From assembly GCA_964016885.1 (NCBI GenBank), contig OZ024741.1:220658001-220722000 (forward strand): a stretch of 64,000 nucleotides of DNA. The letters are read 5' to 3'. The notes under the pieces are model-generated. The model was not told where the DNA came from. It did not search any database and saw nothing but the letters and a program-made list of their open reading frames with translations. Positions 5,562-64,000 of the stretch are shown piece after piece. Numbering within the stretch: position 1 is the first letter of the stretch; every line of letters starts with the position of its first letter. A program made the translations under genes and the position numbers. Source of the stretch: Eledone cirrhosa (Eukaryota).

Positions 5562-5693
5562 ATAAGTTGAAAAAAAATGAAAACGAAATTTCATTTCTCA
5601 CTCTTAGTATGGCACTTACTTAAATGTAAGTATGTATGTATACGTACATACATATATGTATACAGACGTACAGTAGCATGCATATATATATAC

Positions 5694-5725
<32 letters not shown>

Positions 5726-6658
5726 ACACATATGCACACAGGTACACATACATATATGCACGCATCAGTTTAGCCGACGTTTATTATAACGCAGCTTTGT
5801 TCGTTTGTTTGACAACAAACAGAACAGCCTGAATTTATGCCATACGGTGTTAAGGCAACCACGTCACCTTTTTGTTCAACACTGACACAGGAACGATGTA
5901 CTAGTTTCAAGCTTGTTAGCTATCATCAGCACCATTTACCCATCTGCCAGATAGTTGAACGTTCGAAAGTATATACTTTCCTTATGAAAATTAACGGCTG
6001 AGCAGCCTAAGTTGCATATTGAGTGAGTTAAATCGGTCAGGCATACCGAAAACGATAAGTTGAAAAAAAAATGAAAACGAAATTTCATTTCTCACTCTTA
6101 GTATGGCACTTACTTAAATGTAAGTATGTATGTATACGTACATACATATATGTATACAGACGTACAGTAGCATGCATATATATATACATATATATATATA
6201 CATATATATACATATATGCACACAGGTACACATACATATATGCACGCATCAGTTTAGCCGACGTTTATTATAACGCAGCTTTGTTCGTTTGTTTGTCAAC
6301 AAACAGAACAGCCTGAATTTATGCCATACGGTGTTAAGGCAACCACGTCACCTTTTTGTTCAACACTGACACAGGAACGATGTACTAGTTTCAAGCTTGT
6401 TAGCTATCATCAGCACCATTTACCCATCTGCCAGATAGTTGAACGTTCGAAAGTATATACTTTCCTTATGAAAATTAACGGCTGAGCAGCCTAAGTTGCA
6501 TATTGAGTGAGTTAAATCGGTCAGGCATACCGAAAACGATAAGTTGAAAAAAAATGAAAACGAAATTTCATTTCTCACTCTTAGTATGGCACTTACTTAA
6601 ATGTAAGTATGTATGTATACGTACATATATACATGTATACAGACGTACAGTAGCATGC

Positions 6659-6709
<51 letters not shown>

Positions 6710-7496
6710 CATACACATATGCACACAGGTACACATACATATATGCACGCATCAGTTTTGCCGACATTTATTATAACGCAGCTTAGTTCGTTTGTTTGTC
6801 AACAAACAGAACAGCCTGAATTTATGCCATACGGTGTTAAGGCAACCACGTCACCTTTTTGTTCAACACTGACACAGGAACGATGTACTAGTTTCAAGCT
6901 TGTTAGCTATCATCAGCACCGTTTACCCATCTGCCAGATAGTTGAACGTTCGAAAGTATATACTTTCCTTATGAAAATTAACGGCTGAGCAGCCTAATTT
7001 GCATATTGAGTGAGTTAAATCGGTCAGGCATATCGAAAACGATAAGTTGAAAAAAAAATGAAAACGAAATTTCATTTCTCACTCTTAGTATGGCACTTAC
7101 TTAAATGTAAGTATGTATGTATACGTACATACATATATGTATACAGACGTACAGTAGCATGCATATATATATACATATATATATATATACATATACATAT
7201 ATATACATATATGCACACAGGTACACATACATATATGCACGCATCAGTTTAGCCGATGTTTATTATAACGCAGCTTTGTTCGTTTGTTTGTCAACAAACA
7301 GAACAGCCTGAATTTATGCCATACGGTGTTAAGGCAACCACGTCACCTTTTTGTTCAACACTGACACAGGAACGATGTACTATTTTCAAGCTTGTTAGCT
7401 ATCATCAGCACCGTTTACCCATCTGCCAGATAGTTGAACGTTCGTCGGCTAAACTGATGCGTGCATATATGTATGTGTACCTGTGTGCATATGTGT

Positions 7497-7544
<48 letters not shown>

Positions 7545-7597
7545 GCATGCTACTGTACGTCTGTATACATATATGTATGTACGTATACATACATACT

Positions 7598-7600
<3 letters not shown>
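5562..7600 (-). mobile_element. Retrozyme-like tandem array 1: ~4 units of 483-504 bp plus an inverted partial copy (7443-7600)
   Basis: Unit recurs at ~5577, 6071, 6554, 7058; minus-strand hammerheads at 5893-5935, 6377-6419, 6880-6922 and 7372-7414 (last has a stem III mutation); flanked by (TA)n. Confidence 0.85.
5893..5935 (-). ncRNA. Type I hammerhead ribozyme (array 1, unit 1)
   Basis: atggtg-CTGATGA-t-agct-aaca-agct-t-GAAA-ctag-TA-catcgt. Confidence 0.85.
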
Positions 7601-7636
<36 letters not shown>

Positions 7637-10626: not shown

Positions 10627-11016
10627 TATAAATATATATAAATAAATATATAAATGTATATATATATATAAATATATAAATATATATAAATAAATATATA
10701 AATATATAAATATATAAATATATAAATATATATATATAAATATAAAAATATATAAATATATAAATATATATATAAATATATATATATATAAATATATAAA
10801 TATATATATAAATATATATATATATTTCGTTTCTGAATTTGTTTAGCAAGATTCTTTATCTGAAAACGTGTGTTGAAACCGATATTGTTATGCTTTGGGA
10901 GGGTCATGTTGCCAATAAGAAACACATGCACCAATTTATTATAAATTAAATTTATAAATTTAGGAATTTATAAATTTCCGGTTGGTTGTTCATATATTTC
11001 CGATTGTTCATATATT

Positions 11017-11059
11017 GTCAAAGTTCTTTCATCACACATTCTGTGACCTCTTCAGTAAC
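11017..11059 (-). ncRNA. Minimal hammerhead motif in a dispersed repeat (10825-11070)
   Basis: gtta-CTGAAGA-ggtcacagaatgtgtgat-GAAA-gaac-TT-tgac; same repeat family at 54245-54690 and 57840-58045. Confidence 0.65.
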
Positions 11060-11149
11060 TGGGGATTCTTTTCTTTGTTTTTGTGCTTCTCCTTTGTTCT
11101 GTCCTACGCCATCTTGTTTTATAAATATATATAAATATAAATATATATA

Positions 11150-11729: not shown

Positions 11730-12050
11730 ATATATATGTAAGTATGTATACGTACATACATATATGTATACAGACGTACAGTAGTATGTATATATATACA
11801 TACATGCATACATATATATATGTACGTATGGGTTTACGGAACATTTATTATAATGTTCGGTTTGTTTGTAAACAAAGAGCCTGAATTAAGCCGTACATTG
11901 TTCGGCAACCATCGTTGCCCTTTTGTTCAACACTGACAATACGATGCTGACAATAGCTAATAAGCTTGAAACTAGTTCATCGTTCCTTTGTCAGTGTTGA
12001 ACAAAAGGGCAACGATGGTTGCCGAATACTGTACGGCTTAATTCGGGCTG
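11730..12050. mobile_element. Diverged retrozyme-family fragment with fold-back; hammerhead 11941-11983 (+) with core CTGACAA
   Basis: Shares CAGACGTACAGTAG, TTGTTCAACACTGAC, AAGCTTGAAACTAG with the array unit; stem I acgatg/catcgt. Confidence 0.8.
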
Positions 12051-12062
12051 TCACGACTTAAT

Positions 12063-17564: not shown

Positions 17565-20500
17565 TCAGCTCAAAGCTTCATTATAGACAATATTCAGGGT
17601 TGTTCCTCTGTTAGTGGTATCAATTTCAAATTTTATACCATCAGGATCGCACACTCGAGATGCAGCAACATGGCTGGATGCTAGATCATTCAAGTAGACA
17701 CCGACTAGCTTGAAAGTCTGTCCCTGTGCCTTGTTGAATCATGGAGAAGGCCAAATTGACGGGAAACTGTCTCCTTTGCCAAATGAATGGCAGCAGATCT
17801 TCACTTGGTCTCAGCATGATCCTCGGAATGAGAACCGATTTCTCTCTACCTGGGAGTTTAGCTTCTAAAACTCTTTCGTTAATCAATCTCTCAACAATCA
17901 ATCTGGTACCATTGCAAAGACCCATTTTATGATTGATATTTCTAAGCAATATAATCGGCATACACTTTTTCAACCTCAAATTATGTGGGGGAAATCCGGG
18001 TATTTGAAGTGAATTCAGATACTCAGTCGCAACATCCATATTGTTCTGCTGGTTAGGCTCCATTGCATCCGCACTGACGGTCAACCATTCCTCTCCAGGA
18101 AACATTCCGGCTACTTGTGAATTTATTTCATCGACCGTTGCATTCATATGAGTTAGAATAACGCGTTCTGATATCCAGGAGATATTCTGCCAAAAAGCAT
18201 TCAAATTAGGGAACACACAGTCAATCAATGCTTGGCGGTCCAGTGGCATGACCAAATAGTCTGGGATTCTTACAGTCTGATTATCACCAATGTGTGGCAA
18301 TTCATCTTTTCCCAACTGCATCAACCATCGGCTGTATGTCTCAGCCTCTTCGTTTTGCCCGAACATACGAAGTCGCATATTATCGTGTAATCGCAAAACT
18401 CTGAAATGGCGCCACAACGGGGACTTTTTCAGACATGCATTGACAATTTGCGCTCTTTGAGCATTCCTAACAATTGGTAGCACCTGTCTGAAATAGCCAC
18501 CAAGAACGATAGTCTTACCACCGAATGGAAGGTCAATACCGCAGATATCTCTCAAAGTTCTGTCCAATGCCTCCAGCAAATATCTGTGTGCCATTGGAGC
18601 CTTGTCCCAAATAATCAGAGACGTATTGCGTATAAGCCCCGCGAGTTCACTTTGTCCTGTAATGTTACAGACACTCAACTCATCCGGAGCCAATGGAACC
18701 TTGAAGCATGAGTGGAACGTCCTTCCCCCACTCAGCAAAGTGGCAGCGATCCCACTGGTGGCCACAGGAAGAGCAATCTTCCTCTGAGCTCTGACTGCCG
18801 ATAACATAGTGTTGAAACAGAATGTCTTTCCGGTGCCTCCTGGAGCATCTATGAAAGCACAAAGTTGCTCATTAGTGGAAATCGAGTGGAGAACACCATC
18901 GACCAATTCTCTCTGAGATTGGGTCAACATTGGCATACGTTCAGCCACAATACGTTGCTGTTCCAGTGGATCAAACTGGAATAGTTCCCTCCGATCGAGT
19001 GGCAACCGTCTAAGCTGCAATCTCATGTGCAATGCTAAGGCACGTTGCCGCATTTCTTCATCAGGAATTGGCAAATTGAAATCTGTTAAACATTTGAAAT
19101 GAACTTCATGCAGTTGCTCAATATTGAGCAAAACAATAGCTTTCATCAAATTTTCATCATCGACCTGAAGATGATGCCTAAAATCATCAGCCATAATTCC
19201 CCAATGGCATTCAAATAACTCTATTGGATCGGCAGGATTGCAGAATCCTAGAATCGTGACAAACAACTGCCTTATTTGAGCTGGCATCTGTGTTGTTCAT
19301 GCAGCTTCCATGACGTTATTCCTTTCAGCGTCATCCTGAAGGAGTCCCAGATGCTGACACACAGCCTGGTATGTTTCATATTCCACGCCATTGATTGTTT
19401 TCAAATCATCGAAGCTCTATCTACCTCTCGAAAAATCATTATGTAACAGAATTCGGAGATAAAACACATCAGTAGATTCTGGATGGACAGTACAAACCCG
19501 CCCAATAGTCATGAATCTCAACTTTTGTTTTCTATCATTCCATTTCTTTCCCTTCTTATCCCATGTATAGTGTGAAGGGAAATCGCAGTAGAGTTGCCTT
19601 TGATCCGAGTTCAAAGCATGTTCCCTATTATGCTTGAACCACTCAGTCAATTCCGTCTTAGGAGGTGGTGCGTTAGCAATTCTTTCGACACTTCTTCTAG
19701 TGTCCTGAAAACGGACCATTTGCCTATTCTCTAAGTGAACCGTCAGTTTCTGAACGCTGGGCTTGCGTTCATTGAGATCAACATCGAACAATCTCCAGCA
19801 AGCTTCGCTAGATCCAATCGAGCGAACATCCTGGAACCTGCCAACTTCATCTCCTTGGTTCGCTTCCTCATTCCTGACATTTATCATTGCCCGATCATGA
19901 CCTTTGTAAACATATTTGAATAGATATTTGCAAGCTTTCACTGAGCTACAAATTTCCACATTAATATGACAACGATATTTCATAATCAAATATGGATTGT
20001 ATGGCACAACCCATTGATTTGTAACCTGTCGACCGTTTACATTTTCGACCAAACCGCCATCTGCAGGCGACCGTCTTCTGTATGAGGGATGAGCCTCCCC
20101 ATCGTTCCAGGAAGTGTTCGTGACAAAAGATTTCGGAAAGTGCTTACTGCATTGGCCATTTTTCATGCATGGCGCTTTCCGATTTGCCACCAAATTGCGT
20201 AGTGCCTCATTCTCCGGCAGTTCAGCACACACAATGCTGTCAACATCCTCAGCACATCTCAATTTGCAATCTCTATGTAAAATGATCAGCAAATGTGCAT
20301 GTGACAATCCTCTTTTTTGGAATTCAATTACGTATGTAAAAGCAACTATACCTCCTAAGATTCCCTCTTTATCCACATCATCCATTATCTTTTTCAGATA
20401 TCCTTTGAATACTCTTGCCACAATATCAAAACGGTCCTTTGGCTGTTGTCCTTGCGAAAGTGCATCCTTAATATCAGTCCATTCAGGATTGCATGTAACC

Positions 20501-22090
20501 GTTATAAACAAATCTGGCTTTCCAAACTTTCTGACAATAGCCATTGCATCCTGATAGCGAATGTTCATATATCTCGGGAGGCTGATGAACGACGATGGCA
20601 AAATGATGCGTCGACCAATTTGCTTGTAATTGGCATCATCGGCTGTTATCGCATCCTGTATATTATTATACAATTCAGCTCTGATATGTTGCTGATGTGT
20701 AGCTATATAATTTAGCCTTTGATTTTCGATCTTTGCGAATTCCATACAACAGTATTCCTGGAACAATCTGCTGGCTTGAAATAGCGCATTCCTCTGTTGA
20801 TTTCTCTCGTTCAAATGGAACGCGCAAAAGTCGCAAATCGAATTATTGTGTCTATTGCCACCTTCCTGTTGATGCTGATTCTCATGATCATCTAAATGAA
20901 CGGACATGTTCCATCCATTTTCACATTTTGGGAATAAAAGAACATAATGATCGTAGGCACTATTTGACTCATTGGTAGTCTTGAGACCACCATCTCTGCG
21001 ATTGAGGACGATATCTTTCGATCCAGGCTTATCGTCCATCAACACAGCAACTTCACGAAATCCTTCAGGGGCTTTATATCACCGTTCGTGTTGATTCCTT
21101 GGCACTGCGTCAGCCTTAATCACCAATGTTTGCTGCTGAACATTTTGCAGTTCAGCCACCAACATGAAATCCATAACATAAGGATTACACTGTCTAAGCC
21201 ATGATTGCAAATCACGGATCAAATCACTTAATTTTGCCGTTCAAGTTCAGTTATATTTCCCGGCAACTTCATCCAACCAATCCTGATATCCTCCTCCGAT
21301 TCACTATAATCTGGATCGTTAATGTAAACTTGAGGGAATCGAGGCCTCTCTCCTGGAGTAACTGCTAAATTACCGATACAATGATACAAACGGCCTTGAA
21401 TGACTACATTCGGTTGCCATGCTCCACTCTCAAACATCTCACTAACTCTCTGCGATGCTAAAGCTAATGAATTTTTAATTTGCCGCGAATATTTGCGCAG
21501 TAATCTACCTCGGTCTCCTTGATCACCCCACATACTTAGTATTTTAAACTGCGGTGACTCCTCATCATCCGGCATTCGCAAGGGTTCTAGTTGAACTGCT
21601 CCTTTATGACAGCACATTGTGGTCCACGTCTTTTCGTGTCTCCAAAGCAATGCTCCACAATGCGGACACTCTGCTCGTCCACCAATCTGAAAATGTCACG
21701 GTTGCCATGATCCATTTTTAATATCATTAGTTCGCCTTCTAGCCTCTTTACTGGAATGAGGAGCACTTTGGCGACACATTTACTGAACTTCTGTATTGCG
21801 CGGGTGTTGTTCAGCCAGCTTCTCTTCATCCATCGCTGCACGCTGTTGCTGCTCAATTCTGGCCATCTGCTGATGATGCTCAGCCAGTTCGTCTTCAACC
21901 ATCGCAGCACGCTGTCGCTGCTTGGCTCCAGTGTTTCGTTGGCATTGTTCATGGCGGCACGTCTTCACCTCTGAAGTTCGGCGTTCCGATGGCGCTGTTC
22001 TGCCCGTTTTTCTTCATTGATGGCTGCACGCCGTCGCCGCTGTAGTTCACTGTTTGATAAAGTCGAATTGCTTTTATTATCAGTATTCAT
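17565..22090 (-). pseudogene. Helitron RepHel (HUH Rep + PIF1-family helicase), disrupted by stops and frameshifts
   Basis: CPHC..CC Zn motif; Rep motifs DLFITVTCNPEW, EFQKRGLSHAHLLI, YLFKYVYKG; helicase DAPGGTGKT, IIWDKAPM, GYFRQVLP, GLCNGTRL, RRQFPVNLAFSM; after a frameshift ends TLNIVYNEALS* at 17565. Confidence 0.95.
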
Positions 22091-33893: not shown

Positions 33894-33907
33894 AAGATAT
33901 ATATATA

Positions 33908-35050
33908 TATAATAATAATATATATGTAGTAAGAAACACAGTAAATCGTGTGTCTAATATTACGAGGGTTGAAAGAGCACATTTGTTTGAAATATTTAAC
34001 CATGAAGCAGACAGAATGATAAAATAAAATAAAATTATATTATACAAACCGCCTCAATAACAATTATATCTCTCGGACAGATTAGGGATTAATCTGTTTC
34101 GCCCTGAGTGTGTTTGTAACAGATATATATATTATTATATATATATTACATATATATTATTATTATAATTGTTTCTAGGGCGGTGGATTGGCAGTATCGG
34201 TAGAGGGTCGGACGCCATGCTTTCCAGCATAGTTACGTCCCTTTACGATCTGAGTTCAAATCCCGCCGAGGTTGACTTTGCCTTTCATCCTTACGGGGAC
34301 GATAAAATAAAGTACCAGTAATGCACTGGATAATTGCTGGCCTTGTGCCTAAAGTAGAAACAATTATTATAATTGTTTCTATTTTAGGCACAAGGCCAGC
34401 AATTAACCAGTACATTGCTGGTACTTTATTTTATCGACCCCGTAAGGATGAAAGGCAAAGTTAACCTCGGCTGATTTGAACTCAGATCATAAAGGGACGT
34501 AACTCTATGCTTCAAAGCATGGTGTCCGACTCTCTACCGATACTGCCAATCCACCGCCATTATTATTATTATAATGCTCGGTATTTATACTTTGAGCTTA
34601 TTGATTACAGGGTTTCAGTAAGAGTTATTAACTCTAACTTTCATTTATATTTCGGCTCCCTCAAGAGGTGAGCTTATTAAGTTGCGTGTGTTGGACTGTT
34701 GTTTCTAACCAATACACTCATACCACTTTTGACTTACGGCACACGAGGTGATTAATTCATTTTTCTGTGTGAACGTTGGTACTAGGTGTTTGTCGCATTT
34801 AATCAGATTCTCTCGCTTATGATGTCCATGGATTATCTGTTACAAACACACTCAGGGCGAAACAGATTAATCCCTAATCTGTCCGAGAGATATAATTGTT
34901 ATTGAGGCGGTTTGTATAATATAATTTTATTTTATTTTATCATTCTGTCTGCTTCATGGTTAAATATTTCAAACAAATGTGGTTCTTCAACCCTCGTAAT
35001 ATGAGACACACGGTTTACTGTGTTTCTTACTACATATATATTATTATTAT
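33908..35050. repeat. Inverted repeat with ~215-bp arms (33908-34125, 34833-35050) enclosing a SINE pair
   Basis: Arms are reverse complements; related fragment at 9612-9705. Confidence 0.85.
34178..34558. mobile_element. Tail-to-tail SINE family A pair (34178-34368 plus; 34370-34558 minus)
   Basis: Plus copy GGCGGTGGATTGGCAGTATCGGTAGAG..GAGTTCAAATCCC..AAAGTAGAAACAATTAT; flanked by ATTATAATTGTTTCTA direct repeat. Confidence 0.9.
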
Positions 35051-35118
35051 AATGCTCGATTTATACTTTGAGCTTATTGATTACAGGGTTTCAGTAAGAG
35101 TTATTAATTCTAACTTTC

Positions 35119-41147: not shown

Positions 41148-41180
<33 letters not shown>

Positions 41181-41185
<5 letters not shown>

Positions 41186-44073
41186 TGAAACAAAATGAAA
41201 ACGAAATTTCATTTCTCACTCTTAGTATGGCACTTACTTAAATGTAAGTATGCATGTATACGTACATACATATATGTATACAGACGTACAGTAGCATGCA
41301 CATATATATATATATATACATATATACATACATATGCATACAGGTACACATACATATATGCACGTATCAGTTTAGCGGCGCTTATTATAACGTCGCTTTG
41401 TTCGTTTGTAAACAAACTGAACAGCCTGAATTTATGCCATACGGTGTTAAGGCAACCACGTCACCTTTTTGTTCAACACTGACACAGGAACGATGTACTA
41501 GTTTCAAGCTTGTTAGCTATCATCAGCACCGTTTACCCATCTGCCAGATAGTTGAACGTTCGAAAGTATATACTTTCCTTATGAAAATTAACGGCTGAGC
41601 AGCCTAATTTGCATATTGAGTGAGTTAAATCGGTCAGGCATACCGAAAACGATAAATTGAAACAAAATGAAAACGAAATTTCATTTCTCACTCTTAGTAT
41701 GGCACTTACTTAAATGTAAGTATGCATGTATACGTACATACATATATGTATACAGACGTACAGTAGCATGCACATATATATATATATATATACATATATA
41801 CATACATATGCATACAGGTACACATACATATATGCACGTATCAGTTTAGCGGCGCTTATTATAACGTCGCTTTGTTCGTTTGTAAACAAACTGAACAGCC
41901 TGAATTTATGCCATACGGTGTTAAGGCAACCACGTCACCTTTTTGTTCAACACTGACACAGGAACGATGTACTAGTTTCAAGCTTGTTAGCTATCATCAG
42001 CACCGTTTACCCATCTGCCAGATAGTTGAACGTTCGAAAGTATATACTTTCCTTATGAAAATTAACGGCTGAGCAGCCTAATTTGCATATTGAGTGAGTT
42101 AAATCGGTCAGGCATACCGAAAACGATAAATTGAAACAAAATGAAAACGAAATTTCATTTCTCACTCTTAGTATGGCACTTACTTAAATGTAAGTATGCA
42201 TGTATACGTACATACATATATGTATACAGACGTACAGTAGCATGCACATATATATATATATATATACATATATACATACATATGCATACAGGTACACATA
42301 CATATATGCACGTATCAGTTTAGCGGCGCTTATTATAACGTCGCTTTGTTCGTTTGTAAACAAACTGAACAGCCTGAATTTATGCCATACGGTGTTAAGG
42401 CAACCACGTCACCTTTTTGTTCAACACTGACACAGGAACGATGTACTAGTTTCAAGCTTGTTAGCTATCATCAGCACCGTTTACCCATCTGCCAGATAGT
42501 TGAACGTTCGAAAGTATATACTTTCCTTATGAAAATTAACGGCTGAGCAGCCTAATTTGCATATTGAGTGAGTTAAATCGGTCAGGCATACCGAAAACGA
42601 TAAATTGAAACAAAATGAAAACGAAATTTCATTTCTCACTCTTAGTATGGCACTTACTTAAATGTAAGTATGCATGTATACGTACATACATATATGTATA
42701 CAGACGTACAGTAGCATGCACATATATATATATATATACATATATACATACATATGCATACAGGTACACATACATATATGCACGTATCAGTTTAGCGGCG
42801 CTTATTATAACGTCGCTTTGTTCGTTTGTAAACAAACTGAACAGCCTGAATTTATGCCATACGGTGTTAAGGCAACCACGTCACCTTTTTGTTCAACACT
42901 GACACAGGAACGATGTACTAGTTTCAAGCTTGTTAGCTATCATCAGCACCGTTTACCCATCTGCCAGATAGTTGAACGTTCGAAAGTATATACTTTCCTT
43001 ATGAAAATTAACGGCTGAGCAGCCTAATTTGCATATTGAGTGAGTTAAATCGGTCAGGCATACCGAAAACGATAAATTGAAACAAAATGAAAACGAAATT
43101 TCATTTCTCACTCTTAGTATGGCACTTACTTAAATGTAAGTATGCATGTATACGTACATACATATATGTATACAGACGTACAGTAGCATGCACATATATA
43201 TATATATATACATACATATGCATACAGGTACACATACATATATGCACGTATCAGTTTAGCGGCGCTTATTATAACGTCGCTTTGTTCGTTTGTAAACAAA
43301 CTGAACAGCCTGAATTTATGCCATACGGTGTTAAGGCAACCACGTCACCTTTTTGTTCAACACTGACACAGGAACGATGTACTAGTTTCAAGCTTGTTAG
43401 CTATCATCAGCACCGTTTACCCATCTGCCAGATAGTTGAACGTTCGAAAGTATATACTTTCCTTATGAAAATTAACGGCTGAGCAGCCTAATTTGCATAT
43501 TGAGTGAGTTAAATCGGTCAGGCATACCGAAAACGATAAATTGAAACAAAATGAAAACGAAATTTCATTTCTCACTCTTAGTATGGCACTTACTTAAATG
43601 TAAGTATGCATGTATACGTACATACATATATGTATACAGACGTACAGTAGCATGCACATATATATATATATATACATACATATGCATACAGGTACACATA
43701 CATATATGCACGTATCAGTTTAGCGGCGCTTATTATAACGTCGCTTTGTTCGTTTGTAAACAAACTGAACAGCCTGAATTTATGCCATACGGTGTTAAGG
43801 CAACCACGTCACCTTTTTGTTCAACACTGACACAGGAACGATGTACTAGTTTCAAGCTTGTTAGCTATCATCAGCACCGTTTACCCATCTGCCAGATAGT
43901 TGAACGTTCGAAAGTATATACTTTCCTTATGAAAATTAACGGCTGAGCAGCCTAATTTGCATATTGAGTGAGTTAAATCGGTCAGGCATACCGAAAACGA
44001 TAAACTGAAACAAAATGAAAACGAAATTTCATTTCTCACTCTTAGTATGGCACTTACTTAAATGTAAGTATGC

Positions 44074-44078
<5 letters not shown>
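41181..44078 (-). mobile_element. Retrozyme-like tandem array 2: six near-identical units of 464-474 bp plus a partial seventh
   Basis: Unit recurs at 41195, 41667, 42141, 42615, 43087, 43551, 44015; hammerheads at 41490-41532, 41964-42006, 42438-42480, 42910-42952, 43374-43416, 43838-43880; (TA)n on both flanks. Confidence 0.9.
41490..41532 (-). ncRNA. Type I hammerhead ribozyme (array 2, unit 1)
   Basis: acggtg-CTGATGA-t-agct-aaca-agct-t-GAAA-ctag-TA-catcgt; intact core, GUA cleavage triplet. Confidence 0.9.
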
Positions 44079-44114
<36 letters not shown>

Positions 44115-52349: not shown

Positions 52350-52356
<7 letters not shown>

Positions 52357-53285
52357 AATTAAGTTAAAGATGTACATCCATATATGTATACTGAAATACT
52401 AGTATGTATATGAATACACATACGTATACATATGTAGATGTACCAAGTTTTTTCACTGGTCACTTTACTGTGAGTGGCCAGCTATTCTGTATGTAAACAC
52501 ACAGACAAACCGGTTTTTAGAGTCATACTGGTTTTTGAGGAAACACCTTTCCTCTATTCTCCAGAAAGCCAGACAAGGAATATTGAACTAGTTTCGTTGT
52601 TGTTACAACTCATCAGCAATATTTACCTATCTTCCGGCCTCTCTAGAGAATCGTAAAAGCACATATCGTTATATGCTTTTTCTATGAAAATTAGTAGTGG
52701 GCAGACTAATTTGCATAGAGTGTGAGTAAGTACCGGTTCAACGGAGACGATAAAAACAAATAACGAAACGAAATTAAATTTCGTTTCGTTTGTAACTCAC
52801 TTTTGTATGACTGACGCTTAAACAATTAAGTTAAAGATGTACATCCATATATGTATACTGAAATACTAGTATGTATATGAATACACACACGTATACATAT
52901 GTAGATGTACCAAGTTTTTGAGTAACAACAACGAAACTAGTTCAATATTCCTTGTCTGTCTTTCTGGAAAATAGAGGAAAGGTGTTTCCTCAAAAACCAG
53001 TATGACTCTAAAAACCGGTTTGTCTGTGTGTTTACATACAGAATAGCTGGCCACTCACAGTAAAGTGACCAGTGAAAAAGCTTGGTACATCTACATATGT
53101 ATACGTGTGTGTATTCATATACATACTAGTATTTCAGTATACATATATGGATGTACATCTTTAACTTAATTGTTTAAGCGTCAGTCATACAAAAGTGAGT
53201 TACAAACGAAACGAAATTTAATTTCGTTTCGTTATTTGTTTTTATCGTCTCCGTTGAACCGGTACTTACTCACACTCTATGCAAA
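52350..53285 (-). mobile_element. Distant retrozyme-family member: ~468-bp unit, 1.2 tandem copies plus an inverted copy (52920-53285)
   Basis: AAACAATTAAGTTAAAGATG at ~52352 and ~52820; hammerhead 52579-52623 aatattg-CTGATGA-gttg..caac-GAAA-ctag-TT-caatatt; ATTTGCAT at 52709-52716. Confidence 0.8.
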
Positions 53286-53335
53286 TTATATATATATATA
53301 TATTACATATATATATATTATATATATATATATAT

Positions 53336-53387
<52 letters not shown>

Positions 53388-53390
<3 letters not shown>

Positions 53391-54065
53391 GGATAAAATG
53401 AAACGAGATTTCATTTCCCACTCTTAGTACGGCTGTTACTTAAATATAAGTACGTATACGTACATACATATAGGTATACAGACGTACAGTAGTATGCATA
53501 TGTATATATACATACATGCACACATATATATATATACGTGTGGATTCACCAAACATTTATTATAATGCTCGGTGTGTTTGTAAACAAACATCCCGTATTA
53601 AGTCGTAGTGTCTAGCAACCACCGTTGCTCGTTTGTTCAACACTGACAAAGGAACGCTGTATCAGTTTCAAGCTTGTTAGCTATCGTCAGCAACGTATAC
53701 CTTCGGCTGAGTAGCCCAATTTGCATATCGAGTGGGTTAATCGGCCAGGTGCACCCTTAATATGCATAAGGAAAGTATATACTTTCGGACGTTCAACCAT
53801 CTGGCAGGAAGGTATACGTTGCTGACGATAGCTAACAAGCTTGAAACTAGTACAGCGTTCCTTTGTCAGTGTTGAACAAAGGAGCAACGGTGGTTGCTAG
53901 TCACTACGGCTTAATACGGGATGTTTGTTTACAAACACATCGAACATTATAATAAATGTTTGTTGAATCCACACGTACATATATATATGTGTGCATGTAT
54001 GTATATATATATATATACATACTACTGTACGTCTGTATACATATATGTATGTACGTATACATACT
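53388..54065. mobile_element. Diverged retrozyme-family copy with inversion; hammerhead 53816-53858 (+)
   Basis: acgttg-CTGACGA-tagctaacaagctt-GAAA-ctag-TA-cagcgt; remainder aligns by eye with the array unit. Confidence 0.85.
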
Positions 54066-54244
54066 TATATATATATATATTACATATATATATATATTAC
54101 ATATATATATATATATATTATATATATATATTACATATATATATATATTTATTATATATATATATATATATTACATATATATATATATATATTATATATA
54201 TATTACATATATATGTATATTATATATAGATATATTACATATAT

Positions 54245-54690
54245 CTGAATTTGTTTAGCAAGATACTTTATCCGAAAACGTGTGTTGAAACCGATATTGT
54301 TATGCTTTGGGAGGGTCACGTTGCCAATAAGAAACACACGCACCAGATGCTTTCACTTCAATTTATTATAAATTAAATTCATAAATTTAGGAATTTAAAA
54401 ATTTCCAGTTGGTTGGTTGGTTCAACAACCAGACGATTGTTCATATATCGTCAAAGTTCGTTCGTCACACATTCTGTGACCTCTTTAGTGACTGGGGATT
54501 CACTGAAGAGGTCACAGAATGTGTGACGAAAGAACTTTAACAATATATGAACAATTGTCTGGTTGTGGAACCAACCAACCAACCGGAAATTTATAAATTC
54601 ATAAATTCATAAATTTATTGTATAATAAATTGAAGTGAAAGCAACTGGTGCGTGTGTTTCTTATTTGCAACATGCCCCTCCCAAAGTATA
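54245..54690. repeat. Fold-back (~200-bp arms) of the 10825-family repeat with hammerhead core at 54503-54540
   Basis: CTGAAGA-g-gtcaca-gaatg-tgtgac-GAAA-gaac-TT. Confidence 0.8.
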
Positions 54691-54834
54691 ACGATGCGTT
54701 ATGTCCTTGAGCAAGACATTTTATTTCACGTTGCTCCTTCTACCTGGAGTTGCGACCGATAGATAGTATTAGCAATTGGAAAGACCAACGGAAACACTGT
54801 TTCCTCGGTCCGATTTGACGAAAGTCGATCGTTC

Positions 54835-54886: not shown

Positions 54887-57352
54887 CACTTTTACTCTTT
54901 TACCTGTTCCAGTCATCCGGCAGAGGCTATGCTGGGGCAGCGCCTTTGTTGCTACACATTTCAATTCCAGCCTGTATTGGTTGGCCACTGGTGCAAGAGG
55001 GAGTTCATTGCTGCTGCCTTTAGGTTTCCCTCGAGCCTTGCTTTGGGCTCATCCGGGATCCTGGATAGCAAGGTGTCGGGATGTTTCTTGAAGACATCCA
55101 CATCCACAACACGCAGATCTCTCAGATCCCTCGGAAGCTTGTTGAAGAGTTGAAGGCCCTTGAACCCCAGGTTGTTGCAATATCTGCTCCTTATTCTAGA
55201 TGTGGAAGACGGGACCTTTGGCACAACTCAGTAACGTCCTGTTCGACGGTTGGTCCAGCTCACAATGCTAAAGTTTGGCGCTAGTCCCTCCAGGATTTTC
55301 CTCATGTAGATCACTACGTATCTCTCCCGTCTTCGTTCCAAGGAGTAGAGGTTCAGTTCTTTTAGCCTCTCCCAGTAGCTTATCTCCTTCGTCGTGGCAA
55401 TCCTCTTGGTGTAGCTTCACTGGATTGCCTCAAGCTCCGTGGTTAGTTTGACACTATGGGATGACCACAACTGGGAGCAATTGTCCAAGCATCTTAGGAC
55501 AAATGTCCTCCATAGTGTCAAAATGGTGTCTCGGTTGCTTGTCTGGAAAGTCTGCAAGATCCAGCCCACGAGTCGTCGGCACATTGTCGCCACTTTCATG
55601 ATGTGTGAGGAAAAAGACGCATCATTGCTCATGTCTAAACGCAGGTCTCGTATCGATTTCGACATGGGGATATCGGTCCCTCCTGGTCCGGCGTAACTGT
55701 GTTGTACTGTATTTGTGTTTGCAGGTTTTTATTGTAGGGCTTGGAATTTGCGAGCATTAAACTGCATGATGTTGTCTTCCGAACATTTGTATATGGCATC
55801 CAGATCTTGTTGTGAAAGGGCAGAGTCAGCCGGGTTTGTGATTGCCTGTGCTACCTTAGTGTCATCAGCATAGCTAGTGAGGGATGTTGTTGTATGTACT
55901 TCAGAGGGCATATCTGAAAGAGATCCACCAAAAACAGTAGTGGTCCCAGGACTGTGCCTTGGAGCACCCCACTTGTAACTAATGTTTCCTTTGAGAGGGC
56001 CCCGTTTCCTACGACTGTCTATCCTTTATGAAGTCATGCTGCCACTTACATATTTTTCCACTTATGCCGAGTCCGTGTAGAGTGTGACATACCATTCCGT
56101 GGTCGAACTTGTCAAAGGCCTTCGCAAAGTCAAGATATATCACGTCCATATGTGCGCTGTCTAGCAGTTGTTTCAGTACCCAGTCGTAGTGATGTAGCAG
56201 CTGTGTAAGGCAGCTTCTTCCTGGGCAAAAGCCATGCTGCGTGCTAGTCAGGCGGTCATTTTCCTCGAGGAAAGTGATCAGTTTCTTTCTGATGATTCGC
56301 TCCATGACCTTACTGATATGTGACGTCAGGGAGACTGGCCTATAGTTTTTGGCTTCCGCTCTGCTACCTCCTTTATGGATAGGGCATATTGTGCCTTCTT
56401 TCAGCTCTCTGGATAGTATACCGCTAGCCAAGGAGCTTCTGAAGAGCGTCTTCAGTGGAGTTGCTAATGCCCGCTTGCATGTTTTTAAGAGGACTGATGG
56501 GAATCCATCAGGTCCAGCAGCTGAGTCTGTTCTAATTTTATCTATGGCGTATACCACATACTCCTCCGTTATGTCTATGTGGTTGATGGTCGCCATTTCT
56601 TCATGGCGTGTTATCGTATCAAAGAACTCCTCTGGCTTTGTTATTTGCATGTGCCTCGGTGGACATGTGAACACACTTTTGTACTGTTTGTTCAGTATTC
56701 ACTTATCTATTGGGGATTCTCGGTTAATGAACCGTCTGTATGGAAGAGTGACCCAATCTTGTACTGTACTGAGGCAGTTTCTTTTGAAAATTTAAAGAAG
56801 GCCTTAAGGTTTGTTTTAATATTTTCTATAGCTCTGCTTTCTTTCTTTGCCCTCTCTTTTTCATGGGAAAGTTTGAGTGCAATCTCGGTGTCAAGTAGTG
56901 CACGTTTCAAATAGGGTTCCTTCTTGTTTTAGTTTTCTTGTGCATTCAACTGGTTTGAGAGCTTAGTTCTTCGTCTCATGAGGATTTTCTTACCTCTGGG
57001 AATAAGATTGTTGTGTCTGTTGGCCCTTTTCTCCGGGACAAACGTTTGGCATATAGTGTGTATCGTTGTCATGAAGTGTTGAAATTGTGTGTTGTTGTCT
57101 TGTGCTGCGGTGTTGTCGCTCCATATATGCTTCCGGATTTCTCTCTTGATCTTTTTCCAGTTACCCTTATAGAAGTTAAAGCTGGATAAGGTCCCGGTGC
57201 TTCTTGATGGTTGTGTCTCTGTTGATTCTCTCGGACCACATATCATTAGTACTACTAAGTTATGATCCGAGAAAATTGTTGGTGTCACCTTTACATTGTG
57301 GATGAGCACTTCGTTGTTTGTAAAACAGAGGTCCAGGACATTCTCGCCTCTT
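54886..57352 (-). mobile_element. 5'-truncated CR1-group LINE ORF2 pseudogene (APE C-terminus + RT) with 3' tail
   Basis: NVLDLCFTN..FSDHNLV, AGPDG, NYRPVSLTS, QHGF, DVIYLDFAKAFD, YADDTK, LFNKLP; multiple frameshifts; ends GTAAAAGAGTAAAAG. Confidence 0.9.
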
Positions 57353-57840: not shown

Positions 57841-58040
57841 TCTGAATTTGTTTAGCAAGATTCTTTATCTGACAACGTGTGTTGAAACCGATATTGTTAT
57901 ACTTTGGGACGGTCATGTTGCCAATAAGAAACACATGGAAATGTATACATTTTTTAATTTATAATTTAATTTATAATAAATTGGAGTGAAAGCAACTGGT
58001 GCGTGTGTTTCTTATTGGCAACATGACCCTTCCAAAGTAT

Positions 58041-58101
<61 letters not shown>

Positions 58102-58606: not shown

Positions 58607-58778
58607 TAACAGATTAAAGTTTAAGCAAAGAATCGCTGCTTTCACCCTTAACGGGATCTTCTGAAACTAACAAAGTCAATCTAACAAAGGTTTACAGATT
58701 GACTTTGTTAGTTTCAGAAGATCCCGTTAAGGGTGAAAGCAGCGATTCTTTGCTTAAACTTTAATCTGTTATTTTAAT
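58600..58778. ncRNA. Fold-back carrying a variant hammerhead (core CAGAAGA); plus copy 58710-58760
   Basis: agttt-CAGAAGA-t-ccc-gttaa-ggg-t-GAAA-gca..tgc-TT-aaact; near-identical to 62288-62365. Confidence 0.65.
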
Positions 58779-62131: not shown

Positions 62132-62196
<65 letters not shown>

Positions 62197-62199
62197 ATA

Positions 62200-64000
62200 A
62201 TAATAAATGTAAAGACTAAAATCCAAAGACGGCTTTATAAGGATAAATATATATAAAATATAAGAACCCTAGAGCAAATATTTATTAGAATAACAGATTA
62301 AAGTTTAAGCAAAGAATCGCTGCTTTCACTCTTAACGGGATCTTCTGAAACTAAAAATATCAATCTGTGAACGCAGAATTAAATATTTCGAAAAACGTTG
62401 CAACCGGAAGGAAAGCAGGAAGACGATACTTTGGTTCGTGAAGACGTTTTGTGGCAATGAACGGAAAAAAGCGAAGATAATACGTCGTATGTGGAGTGAT
62501 GAGAACAAATACATGCAAAGACAAAACCACGTTTATGGTATAAATGCTGCCGTAGACTAATATTCTATTTAAGAAACCGAATGATTCTCGGCTTCAGAAT
62601 TAAGAATAATGTAAATAAATTAGTAGAACGCAAATGACAGAGGTTATTAAAAACAATAATAATTAAATATAAACATACACGCATCTATACATAAACCCAC
62701 GTGACACATGTACCCACACACATATGAACGTATACACCAAATGCACATAAAAGAAATATATATGTGTGTGTGTATACATATAATTAAATAAACGTATATA
62801 AATATACACACATAAATACGTATATAGCGCACGCACACACATACCTACAGGTAAATACACATATGTTCACCAAACGTACGCCAAAGAAAAAACACAATGT
62901 ACACATATACACACCTTACATACGTGCAAACACGCATACACGCATGCACACGCAAACACAAAAAAACATATACACATAACCATATACACATATATAAGTA
63001 TATATAATGTAATATATACACCTATAACAAATACAAGCATATATACGTACGAGAAAGTATACGTACCTTCACAAAACATACGGGTAAGATATACTTACCT
63101 ATACTAATAAGAAATAGTATAAACATAAAATATACTTAGCTACCACATCAAGACGTAAATTATCCGCGTATTGTTCCTACTATTCTTTAGAGTATAATGT
63201 GGGGCTGTAATACAGGAGAGTTTTATGCAATTTGTGTTTAAAAGCCGAAATTGCCTCAGAATTTTTTTTTAAGATGTAGTCATTGGCGTCGAGTATTTCC
63301 AGGGCTTCAGCGGCGCAAAGATCGCATGGTCTTTTATTTCCGTTATACGATCTAGCCTTAGCTAGGATCTCCCAGTGTAACCTATATTGGGTGAGGTTGT
63401 CTTTTAGACTCCAGATATAAGCTGAAAGTAACGGCATATTCCTTCTTAAAGGGTTAAGAAAAGAATGGGTGTGCATGTAAAGACGCTGCTTGAATCTATT
63501 GACGGTTAACCCTATGTAGGCCCTATGTAGGAGGTGTTTCGACCTTACATTTGTAGACAATGTTACTGGAGAGGCATTTCCCAAATAGAGGGCAGTCAAT
63601 CCGATTCCTACAATTAGAGTTAGTACTAGCTACAGGGTTGCACATGTTTCTACAGCTAGGTAATTTAGCTAAATTTGAAGCAGTGATGTTATGTGCAAGG
63701 CTAGGAGTCGTAGAGTAAGATATTTTAATGGTATTTCTATTAAAAATGTTATCATAGTTATGTGCTGAAGGGAAATGCTTCCTAATAAGAGAGAGAAAGA
63801 TCTTAGCTAATGGTGTGGCCACCTCCATATTATATGGTGGGTTAAACTATATAATGCGGCGGGATGTATGTTTCTATGCTCATACTCGGTATATGCTACC
63901 TTATCGACAAATCCACTCCGAGCAAGAGGTTCATTGTAGTATGTGGAATGGTCGGTGAAAATATGGTCGTTTGTAGATAGAATGGAAAACCTCAAAGAAA
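62200..64000 (-). mobile_element. Penelope-like (Naiad-type) element 3' part: endonuclease pseudogene, 3' UTR and pLTR-like region
   Basis: GIY-YIG coding region 63180-64000; downstream low-complexity UTR; variant hammerhead ~62297-62353; runs off the window end. Confidence 0.8.
63180..64000 (-). pseudogene. PLE linker + GIY-YIG endonuclease, disrupted
   Basis: II*FNPPY..IFLSLIRKHFP..IFNRNTIKISYS..NCRNRIDCPLFGKCLSSNIVYKC / YIGLT..FKQR..H..SF..LSAYIWSLK..WEIL..CDLCAAEALEI. Confidence 0.88.

What the first reader, a model, noticed from the sequence alone, without database searches (positions are those of the whole stretch)
52350..54065. Diverged family members show compensatory changes, implying selection on RNA structure
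Seen: stem I varies but always pairs: acggtg/catcgt (arrays), acgatg/catcgt (11941), acgttg/cagcgt (53816), aatattg/caatatt (52579). Stem II is agct/agct or gttg/caac. Stem III ACTAGT is retained in all of these. Two non-ribozyme hairpins also covary: ggtgac/gttgcc versus ggcaac/gttgcc versus agcaac/gttgct, and a stem around a constant TTATAATAA loop (agcgacgtt/agcgccgct, agctgcgtt/aacgtcggct, gaacatt/aatgttc). The most distant member keeps a ~468-bp unit. Inference: an old radiation of structured RNA replicons with at least five subfamilies in 64 kb.
Basis: partly seen in the sequence, partly recalled or inferred. Interest (0 to 1): 0.82.

Follow-up and report, generated by a model that had tools for sequence, protein, structure and literature searches.

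The report
Penelope-mobilised hammerhead retrozyme repeat family
These are two copies of a very abundant animal repeat that carries a hammerhead ribozyme motif and whose diverged branches keep the same predicted RNA fold through paired base changes; it is likely a known kind of parasitic circular RNA (a retrozyme), likely copied into the genome by Penelope-like retrotransposons.

Summary
Observation largely confirmed; interpretation partly supported. 52352-53288 and 53385-54073 are two head-to-head insertions of a 415-503 nt repeat with a type I hammerhead. The 3.0-Gb genome has 40,658 exact cores against 23 for the reversed pattern. Covariation survives larger tests: 7 same-branch double changes against 0.64 expected (P=0.0005). 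Subfamilies only 61-64% identical keep the same branched predicted fold, and the ribozyme strand folds better in 10 of 10 monomers. A lineage absent from the window swaps helix III ACUAGU for ACAUGU, still a palindrome, as a dimeric hammerhead needs. Selection acted on source RNAs: inserted copies mutate the core about as often as other sites. New here: 94 of 114 arm 3' ends fall at two fixed sites, mostly beside (TA)n, with one arm at each site in 21 of 33 inverted insertions. This is the Penelope 'tail' signature, shared by a co-resident Hydra-type element. Corrections: four subfamilies, not five; the 11947 and 53661 cores are damaged; several 'compensations' are one-sided G-U changes; 'replicon' is not shown. 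Verdict: new member of non-LTR retrozymes; expression and cleavage untested.

The parts
52352..52919 (-). Locus A, arm 1: subfamily A, one 467-nt unit plus 101 nt; RNA-sense 3' end at 52352 (landmark site 1, small CUUA..UAAG hairpin) abutting (TA)n
52563..52634 (-). Intact type I hammerhead of locus A: core 52616-52587, predicted cleavage after GUU (between 52586 and 52585)
   Evidence: Rfam Hammerhead_HH9 E=2.4e-7, 37.7 bits, below the gathering score of 52; fold
52922..53288 (+). Locus A, arm 2: inverted copy 98-99.5% identical to arm 1; 5'-truncated inside stem II, so no CUGAUGA; 3' end at neither landmark, abutting (TA)n
53385..53749 (-). Locus B, arm 1 (subfamily B; 53704-53749 is a further piece of the unit after an internal gap); 3' end at landmark site 2 (UUUAU|CG) abutting (TA)n
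53654..53696 (-). Hammerhead of arm B1 with damaged helix III (ACUGAU)
   Evidence: sequence; fold
53754..54073 (+). Locus B, arm 2, about 95% identical to arm 1; 3' end at landmark site 1 abutting (TA)n; holds H1 hairpin 53883-53898 and the TTATAATAA hairpin 53938-53965
53816..53858 (+). Intact type I hammerhead of arm B2: core 53822-53851, predicted cleavage after GUA at 53852
   Evidence: no Rfam hammerhead row at E<=10
5562..7605 (-). Subfamily C array (about 3.8 units, 484-503 nt, 4 hammerheads, one with AATAGT) plus inverted arm 7443-7605 (+); ends at site 2 and site 1
41180..44100 (-). Subfamily C array, 6.2 units of 464-474 nt, 6 intact hammerheads; 3' end at site 2 abutting (TA)n
11733..12051 (.). 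Subfamily D head-to-head fragment; hammerhead at 11941-11983 (+) has core CTGACAA (G8 changed)
62187..63974 (-). Context: 5'-truncated Hydra-type Penelope-like element (candidate class of mobiliser, not homologous to the repeat); start coordinate approximate

Best explanation
The two loci are head-to-head insertions of a high-copy repeat with a type I hammerhead motif, likely a non-LTR retrozyme whose tandem arrays would be transcribed, cut by paired hammerheads into unit RNAs that likely circularise, and likely be copied back into (TA)n DNA by a Penelope-like reverse transcriptase/endonuclease. Shown: anatomy, copy number, covariation between subfamilies, strand asymmetry of the predicted fold, neutral decay of inserted copies, two fixed 3' ends and their one-per-arm use. 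Inferred: the 1-bp helix III with a palindromic loop needs two hammerheads (ACUAGU:ACUAGU) to cut, so only tandem arrays can be sources; loci A and B, with one intact core each, are dead ends. The Penelope-like protein nicks both target strands and starts reverse transcription at two internal RNA sites 56-70 nt apart. On an uncut multimer or circle this gives arrays; when both starts extend, it gives head-to-head arms. The conserved fold is what a source RNA must keep to be cut, ligated and bound; it is selection for mobility, not shown to be for a host function.
For: 40,658 cores vs 23 control; members in 5 of 40 evenly spaced 10-kb stretches. Hammerhead pairs: 93.7% of cells paired, 9 of 21 pairs with two-sided change, slid controls 33-48%; with lineage G, 9 of 17 pairs. 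On a tree, internal branches carry 7 canonical-to-canonical double changes vs 0.64 for permuted partners (P=0.0005); terminal branches 0 double, 8 broken. Whole unit, structure-blind alignment: fewer broken pairs than the null at P<=0.0004 in all 6 comparisons of A with B/C/E. Long-range helix arms about 160-200 nt apart: A GTATGACT/AGTCATAC, C GTATGGCA/TGCCATAC, E GTACGGCG/TGCCGTAC. Sense folds 6-42 kcal/mol better than antisense in 10 of 10. Core: 0 of 45 columns carry a variant shared by 3 or more loci vs 48 of 480 other columns (P=0.025), yet rare changes hit it at 13/759 vs 182/8407. Helix III double change keeps the palindrome: 87 of the first 100 listed of 329 matches are ACATGT. 3' ends: 94 of 114 at two sites (4% expected), 67 of those 94 with TA-rich flank; 33 of 77 complete insertions head-to-head, 21 of 33 with one arm per site and none with both at one site. 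The co-resident Hydra-type element has the same two-end pattern, in opposite orientation in 12 of 12 non-window loci holding both orientations. Two reverse-transcription start sites explain the Penelope tail (PMC11167929).
Against: No transcription, cleavage or circle was observed. No autonomous element with a homologous terminal repeat was found; the Hydra family in hand has a different sequence and a tail of about 90 nt. Rfam gathering score not reached. Independent compensatory events in the hammerhead number only about 7-10, mostly on two long branches; the helix III switch rests on about 2 events, not 87. The two pair-count measures did not beat the shuffle control (133/500 and 292/500; 248/500 and 500/500). 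Within subfamilies the signal is weak: shared variants keep pairing in 7 of 17 (P=0.40) at a threshold of 3 loci and 5 of 7 (P=0.03) at 4, against 32 of 108 private; the core-versus-other contrast of shared to rare changes is not significant (P=0.08, 0.38). 3 of 12 comparisons were not significant for broken pairs or borderline (P=0.057, 0.059, 0.041), about half of changed A-versus-B pairs scored as broken, and the UA-rich hairpin was included. Hammerhead domains of B and C alone fold no better than shuffles (z -0.6, -1.2). Most loci were picked by an intact core, which biases arms to run through the cleavage site. Locus A arm 2 ends at neither landmark.
Confidence: 0.82

Rival explanations
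1. It is a retrozyme-like RNA, but another enzyme (an RTE/CR1-type LINE by twin priming) or DNA-level array expansion spreads it.
For: LINE RT fragments are in the window (56009-56698, RVT_1). No homologous Penelope terminal repeat was found. Long arrays (27 units on C1) can grow by unequal crossover, as proposed in bioRxiv 2026.07.22.740005.
Against: Two fixed internal 3' ends used one per arm, TA targeting and overlapping inverted arms match the co-resident Penelope-like element. L1-type twin priming gives non-overlapping segments (recalled).
Confidence: 0.12
2. Covariation comes from DNA palindrome correction (template switching, arm-to-arm conversion) in a satellite, with no selection on RNA.
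For: Units are rich in short palindromes and a UA-rich hairpin; many changed pairs are also canonical on the antisense strand (e.g. 28 vs 31).
Against: G-U pairs and lower energy favour the ribozyme strand in 10 of 10 (G-U tie in 1); arms far apart covary; the unpaired catalytic core is identical in A, B and C at 61% background identity (P about 6e-4).
Confidence: 0.03
3. Self-replicating viroid-like RNAs that were endogenised, or RNAs kept for a host function.
For: Viroid-like size and branched fold; PMC7229834 raises RNA-RNA replication as one possible cause of mussel retrozyme heterogeneity.
Against: A hammerhead motif was found on one polarity only; inserted copies decay neutrally, core included; insertion anatomy is retrotranspositional.
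Confidence: 0.03

Closest known systems
Non-LTR retrozymes of animals (coral, mussel, axolotl; PMC7229834; bioRxiv 10.64898/2026.07.22.740005)
   Same: Non-coding, low-GC (35-38%) units with one type I hammerhead each, in tandem arrays and as dispersed copies; tens of thousands of motifs; co-resident Penelope-like elements.
   Different: Units 415-503 nt, above the 170-400 nt of the 2020 paper but inside the 51-972 nt of the 2026 preprint. At least seven lineages with a conserved whole-unit fold. Tail-type ends and head-to-head insertions are not described for retrozymes in the parts of those papers I read. RNA circles not shown here.
Newt satellite 2 / axolotl HHR_Amex1 and Amex2 hammerheads (PMC7229834 section 15; PMC4209133)
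   Same: Helix I 6 bp, helix II 4 bp, helix III of one pair capped by a palindromic tetraloop (as Amex1); U-U at the base of helix II in B/C/E (as Amex2); predicted to work as dimers.
   Different: Cleavage triplets GUA and GUU dominate; the palindrome itself switches between lineages (CUAG to CAUG).
Hydra-clade Penelope-like elements (PMC8557442) and Anolis Poseidon mechanism (PMC11167929)
   Same: (TA)n targets, inverted 5'-truncated arms, partial tandems, two alternative 3' ends (tail).
   Different: No ORF; tail 56-70 nt versus 30-40 nt published and about 90 nt in the resident Hydra family; no sequence homology found to that family's terminal repeat.

Membership tests
Type I hammerhead ribozyme | Core CUGANGA..GAAA..UH with three helices, helix I open | tested here: met
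   intact in 11 of the 14 full-length window copies (11947, 7408 and 53690 damaged)
Type I hammerhead ribozyme | Rfam family at gathering score | tested here: not met
   none at gathering; HH9 37.7 of 52 bits, E=2.4e-7, for locus A only
Type I hammerhead ribozyme | Loop 1/loop 2 tertiary contact | tested here: inconclusive
   GGUA bulge and UAAYA loop conserved in A, B, C, G; contact itself not modelled
Type I hammerhead ribozyme | Self-cleavage | not testable with these tools
   needs in vitro transcription
Non-LTR retrozyme | Short tandem units each with a type I hammerhead | tested here: met
   arrays of A, B, C, E; loci A and B themselves hold one intact core each
Non-LTR retrozyme | Non-coding, low GC, no LTR structure | tested here: met
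   GC 0.35-0.38; only repeat-derived open frames; primer-binding site and polypurine tract not searched
Non-LTR retrozyme | Expressed as linear and circular unit RNAs | not testable with these tools
   no RNA holder listed; contigs only
Non-LTR retrozyme | Co-resident Penelope-like element; homology to its terminal repeat | tested here: inconclusive
   co-residence met; homology not found in the loci held
Penelope-type mobilisation | Inverted 5'-truncated arm, partial tandems, two alternative 3' ends, microsatellite target | tested here: met
Hydra clade (the co-resident element L112-L115) | C-terminal GIY-YIG without CCHH; RWK, DKT, CxCX5C, CxxC and CxH motifs; (TA)n target | tested here: met
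   RWR, DKT (NKT in L112), CNCRNRADC, CDLC, CKH read against PMC8557442 section 11; no Pfam or PDB hit; Atlas neighbours carry HTH_animal, GIY-YIG, RVT_1; no RT tree built; no canonical hammerhead found in its 3' part
Viroid-like RNA replicon | RNA-to-RNA replication, ribozymes or RNAs of both polarities | tested here: inconclusive
   hammerhead on one polarity only; replication not testable

The most novel reading that the evidence does not exclude
This family is direct genomic evidence that animal retrozyme circles are copied by a TA-targeting Hydra-clade Penelope enzyme using two-site internal initiation, and its conserved multi-helix fold plus two conserved start sites define the RNA signal that enzyme reads. 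The ACUAGU/ACAUGU switch makes helix III a lineage-specific dimerisation code.
Probability: 0.55. Interest if true: 0.62.

Novelty: new member of a known kind. Interest (0 to 1): 0.45.

Why it matters
The kind is known. But which enzyme moves animal retrozymes, and how, is left open in both main papers (PMC7229834 calls Penelope-like elements 'a strong candidate'; the 2026 preprint says mechanisms remain to be elucidated). Here the insertions carry a precise Penelope signature with two mapped start sites, a candidate enzyme class with near-full-length ORFs sits in the same genome, and an in vitro assay exists (PMC11167929), so the question becomes testable. About 40,000 cores also make the family a sizeable part of this genome's repeat content.

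Tried and rejected
RNA evidence: no RNA holder listed. laid contigs of 4 runs of unrecorded kind; all show the head-to-tail joint, which tandem DNA also gives, so it is not evidence of circles; three runs have low depth and were not interpreted. Search for new stem II types by double-change patterns gave only 6 and 15 rare copies, explainable by transitions; not used as support. Longer-stem-II cores (256) were mostly indel variants or unrelated. Autonomous partner with a homologous terminal repeat: not found by blastn, tblastn or nhmmer in the loci held. Two-template idea (arms from different subfamilies): not supported; the sister arm was closer than the median other arm in 29 of 29 and closest in 15 of 29 (30 of the 33 inverted insertions given, 1 without overlap). 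mis-indexed the core for A and C and is discarded; one search replaces it. The 'H1 A' row used wrong coordinates; that hairpin is read. H1 and H2 could not be scored in alignment A1 because loop lengths shift the register (predicts no pairs there). miRNA hits come from inverted repeats. The evenly spaced genome sample covers contigs C1-C4 only (400 kb). Earlier-findings look-ups returned nothing.

Full report
What is there. The window is AT-rich animal DNA from a 3.0-Gb assembly. The host was not determined; microsatellite content and contig sizes recall an octopod, a guess that no call tests. A loose scan finds 13 hammerhead-like cores CTGAYGA-N14-GAAACTAGT in the window and a fourteenth, more damaged, at 53690-53661: ten in two tandem arrays (5562-7444, 41180-44100), one at 11947, one at 52616 and two in locus B. 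The finding's coordinates hold two insertions flanked by (TA)n, each made of two arms pointing away from a central junction. Locus A has one intact core and an inverted arm that starts inside stem II. Locus B has one intact core and one with helix III changed to ACUGAU. Rfam gives no hit at gathering score and Hammerhead_HH9 at E=2.4e-7 for locus A only.

Check of the observation. The main ones: several changes are one-sided G-U, the 11947 core has lost G8 (a position whose mutation abolishes cleavage in PMC11167929), and the window holds four subfamilies, since the two arrays are 95% identical.

Family size and lineages. The genome has 40,658 exact cores against 23 for the reversed pattern; 5 of 40 evenly spaced 10-kb stretches hold members. 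Clustering 134 distinct copies gave groups of 44, 24, 18, 10, 6 and 2 plus 30 singletons at 10% distance. Complete monomers are 415-503 nt. A is 61-64% identical to B, C and E, which are 81-93% identical to each other. A profile search found an older lineage G with helix III ACAUGU, stem II GGGU/ACCC and a C-G closing pair in stem I; 1,127 ACATGT cores exist against 83 controls, part of them other old families.

Is the covariation real? In 55 copies, 93.7% of cells pair, 9 of 21 pairs change on both sides, and slid structures pair 33-48%; with G, 9 of 17 pairs (36 copies). The shuffle control was beaten for percent paired and covariation score (0/500) but not for the number of pairs or pair types, and it ignores relatedness. 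On a tree, internal branches carry 7 canonical-to-canonical double changes against 0.64 for permuted partners (P=0.0005); three more are split by the root; terminal branches carry none and 8 breaks. Beyond the ribozyme, circular folds of 10 real monomers show the same order of about a dozen helices in A and in B/C/E, and the ribozyme strand folds 6-42 kcal/mol better than its complement in 10 of 10. Pairs predicted in one subfamily and carried to another through a structure-blind alignment break less often than independent substitution predicts (P<=0.0004 in 6 of 6 comparisons with A; P 0.0002-0.059 in the 6 closer ones); that test includes the UA-rich hairpin and alignment errors.

Where selection acts. 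Rare changes in copies that were not search seeds hit the core at 13/759, paired sites at 153/8832 and other sites at 182/8407; private pair changes keep pairing in only 32 of 108. No core column of 45 has a variant shared by three or more loci, against 48 of 480 other columns (P=0.025; P=0.10 at a threshold of four). Inserted copies therefore decay about neutrally, and constraint shows in what lineages inherited. The within-subfamily tests are weak and some are not significant.

Helix III. One pair capped by CUAG matches the canonical metazoan type that is inefficient as a monomer and folds as a dimer in tandem repeats (PMC4209133; PMC7229834 section 15). Predicted monomer folds mispair the core with this segment. 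When both inner letters change, the result is a palindrome: 87 ACATGT and 2 ACGCGT among the first 100 of 329 matches (hand count). These trace to lineage G plus one C-type array, about two events. Inner loop letters need not covary in a monomer but must in an ACUAGU:ACUAGU duplex (-4.8 kcal/mol; ACAUGU -4.6). Dimer cleavage is inferred, not shown.

How copies insert. Of 114 arms with a 3' end inside a locus, 50 end at a small hairpin (site 1) and 44 at UUUAU|CG (site 2), 56-70 nt downstream, homologous in A, B, C and E; 4% would by chance; 67 of 94 have TA-rich flanks against 3 of 20 other ends (background for a 20-nt TA-rich stretch 3%). 33 of 77 complete insertions are head-to-head; 21 use one site per arm, none the same site twice. 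74 of 94 arms run through the cleavage site and 45 exceed one unit, consistent with uncut multimer or circular templates, though seeding on intact cores inflates this. Sister arms belong to the same subfamily. Inverted truncated arms and an optional tail are Penelope traits, and Hydra-clade elements target (TA)n (PMC8557442); the tail equals the span between two internal start sites (PMC11167929). The genome holds abundant Hydra-type elements with 675-713 aa frames that show the same pattern: 36 short and 20 long ends of 59, one of each in opposite orientation in 12 of 12 non-window loci with both orientations. Their sequence is not homologous to the repeat, so the partner family is unidentified.

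Comparison and novelty. It works like, and meets the testable features of, a non-LTR retrozyme; expression and cleavage are untested, and homology to a Penelope terminal repeat was not found. Covariation among genomic hammerhead families is already noted in PMC4209133. Searches listed no paper on such a family in cephalopods, nor on tail-type ends in retrozymes; the library lacks most subscription papers. Papers seen: bioRxiv 10.64898/2026.07.22.740005, parts 1-3 of 5 (abstract to discussion); PMC7229834, passages and sections 14, 15, 17; PMC4209133, passages; PMC8557442, passages and section 11; PMC11167929, parts 1-2 of 4. No supplements were read; those of PMC7229834, PMC8557442 and the preprint may list this host's motifs or families.

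Verdict. Real feature, real covariation, known kind. Interest 0.45, carried by the insertion signature and the palindrome switch rather than by the covariation itself.

Noticed in passing
window 17686-21078 (-): Helitron: Rep (Helitron_like_N) and PIF1 helicase frames, in two pieces.
   Followed up: no
window 62187-63974 (-), also ends near 58630 (-) and 58747 (+): Fragments and 3' ends of the abundant Hydra-type Penelope-like family; its 3' part has a hammerhead-like stretch with CAGAAGA in place of the usual core and no canonical motif was found.
   Followed up: partly
window 54296-54695, related 10832-11068 and 57841-58048: Another palindromic element (196-nt arms, 90% complementary) next to locus B, with no hammerhead core found by the scan; possibly a second non-autonomous family.
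   Followed up: no
window 33900-35110: Direct and inverted repeat of about 480 nt that looks like a decayed Penelope 3' end (recalled motif), interrupted by two copies of a SINE-like element at TTATAATAA-type sites; the same element interrupts L097 with a duplicated target.
   Followed up: partly
window 56009-56698 (-): LINE-type reverse transcriptase fragment (RVT_1, E=2.3e-12).
   Followed up: no
G000:C1:5738327-5752443: Array of about 30 A2 units ending in an inverted arm, a candidate source locus.
   Followed up: partly
L064, L071, L075, L076, L089, L114: Several other hammerhead-like families with different palindromic helix III loops (ACGTTA, ATGCAT, ACAGTA, ACAATT, ATATAT contexts) lie near Penelope-like copies.
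   Followed up: no
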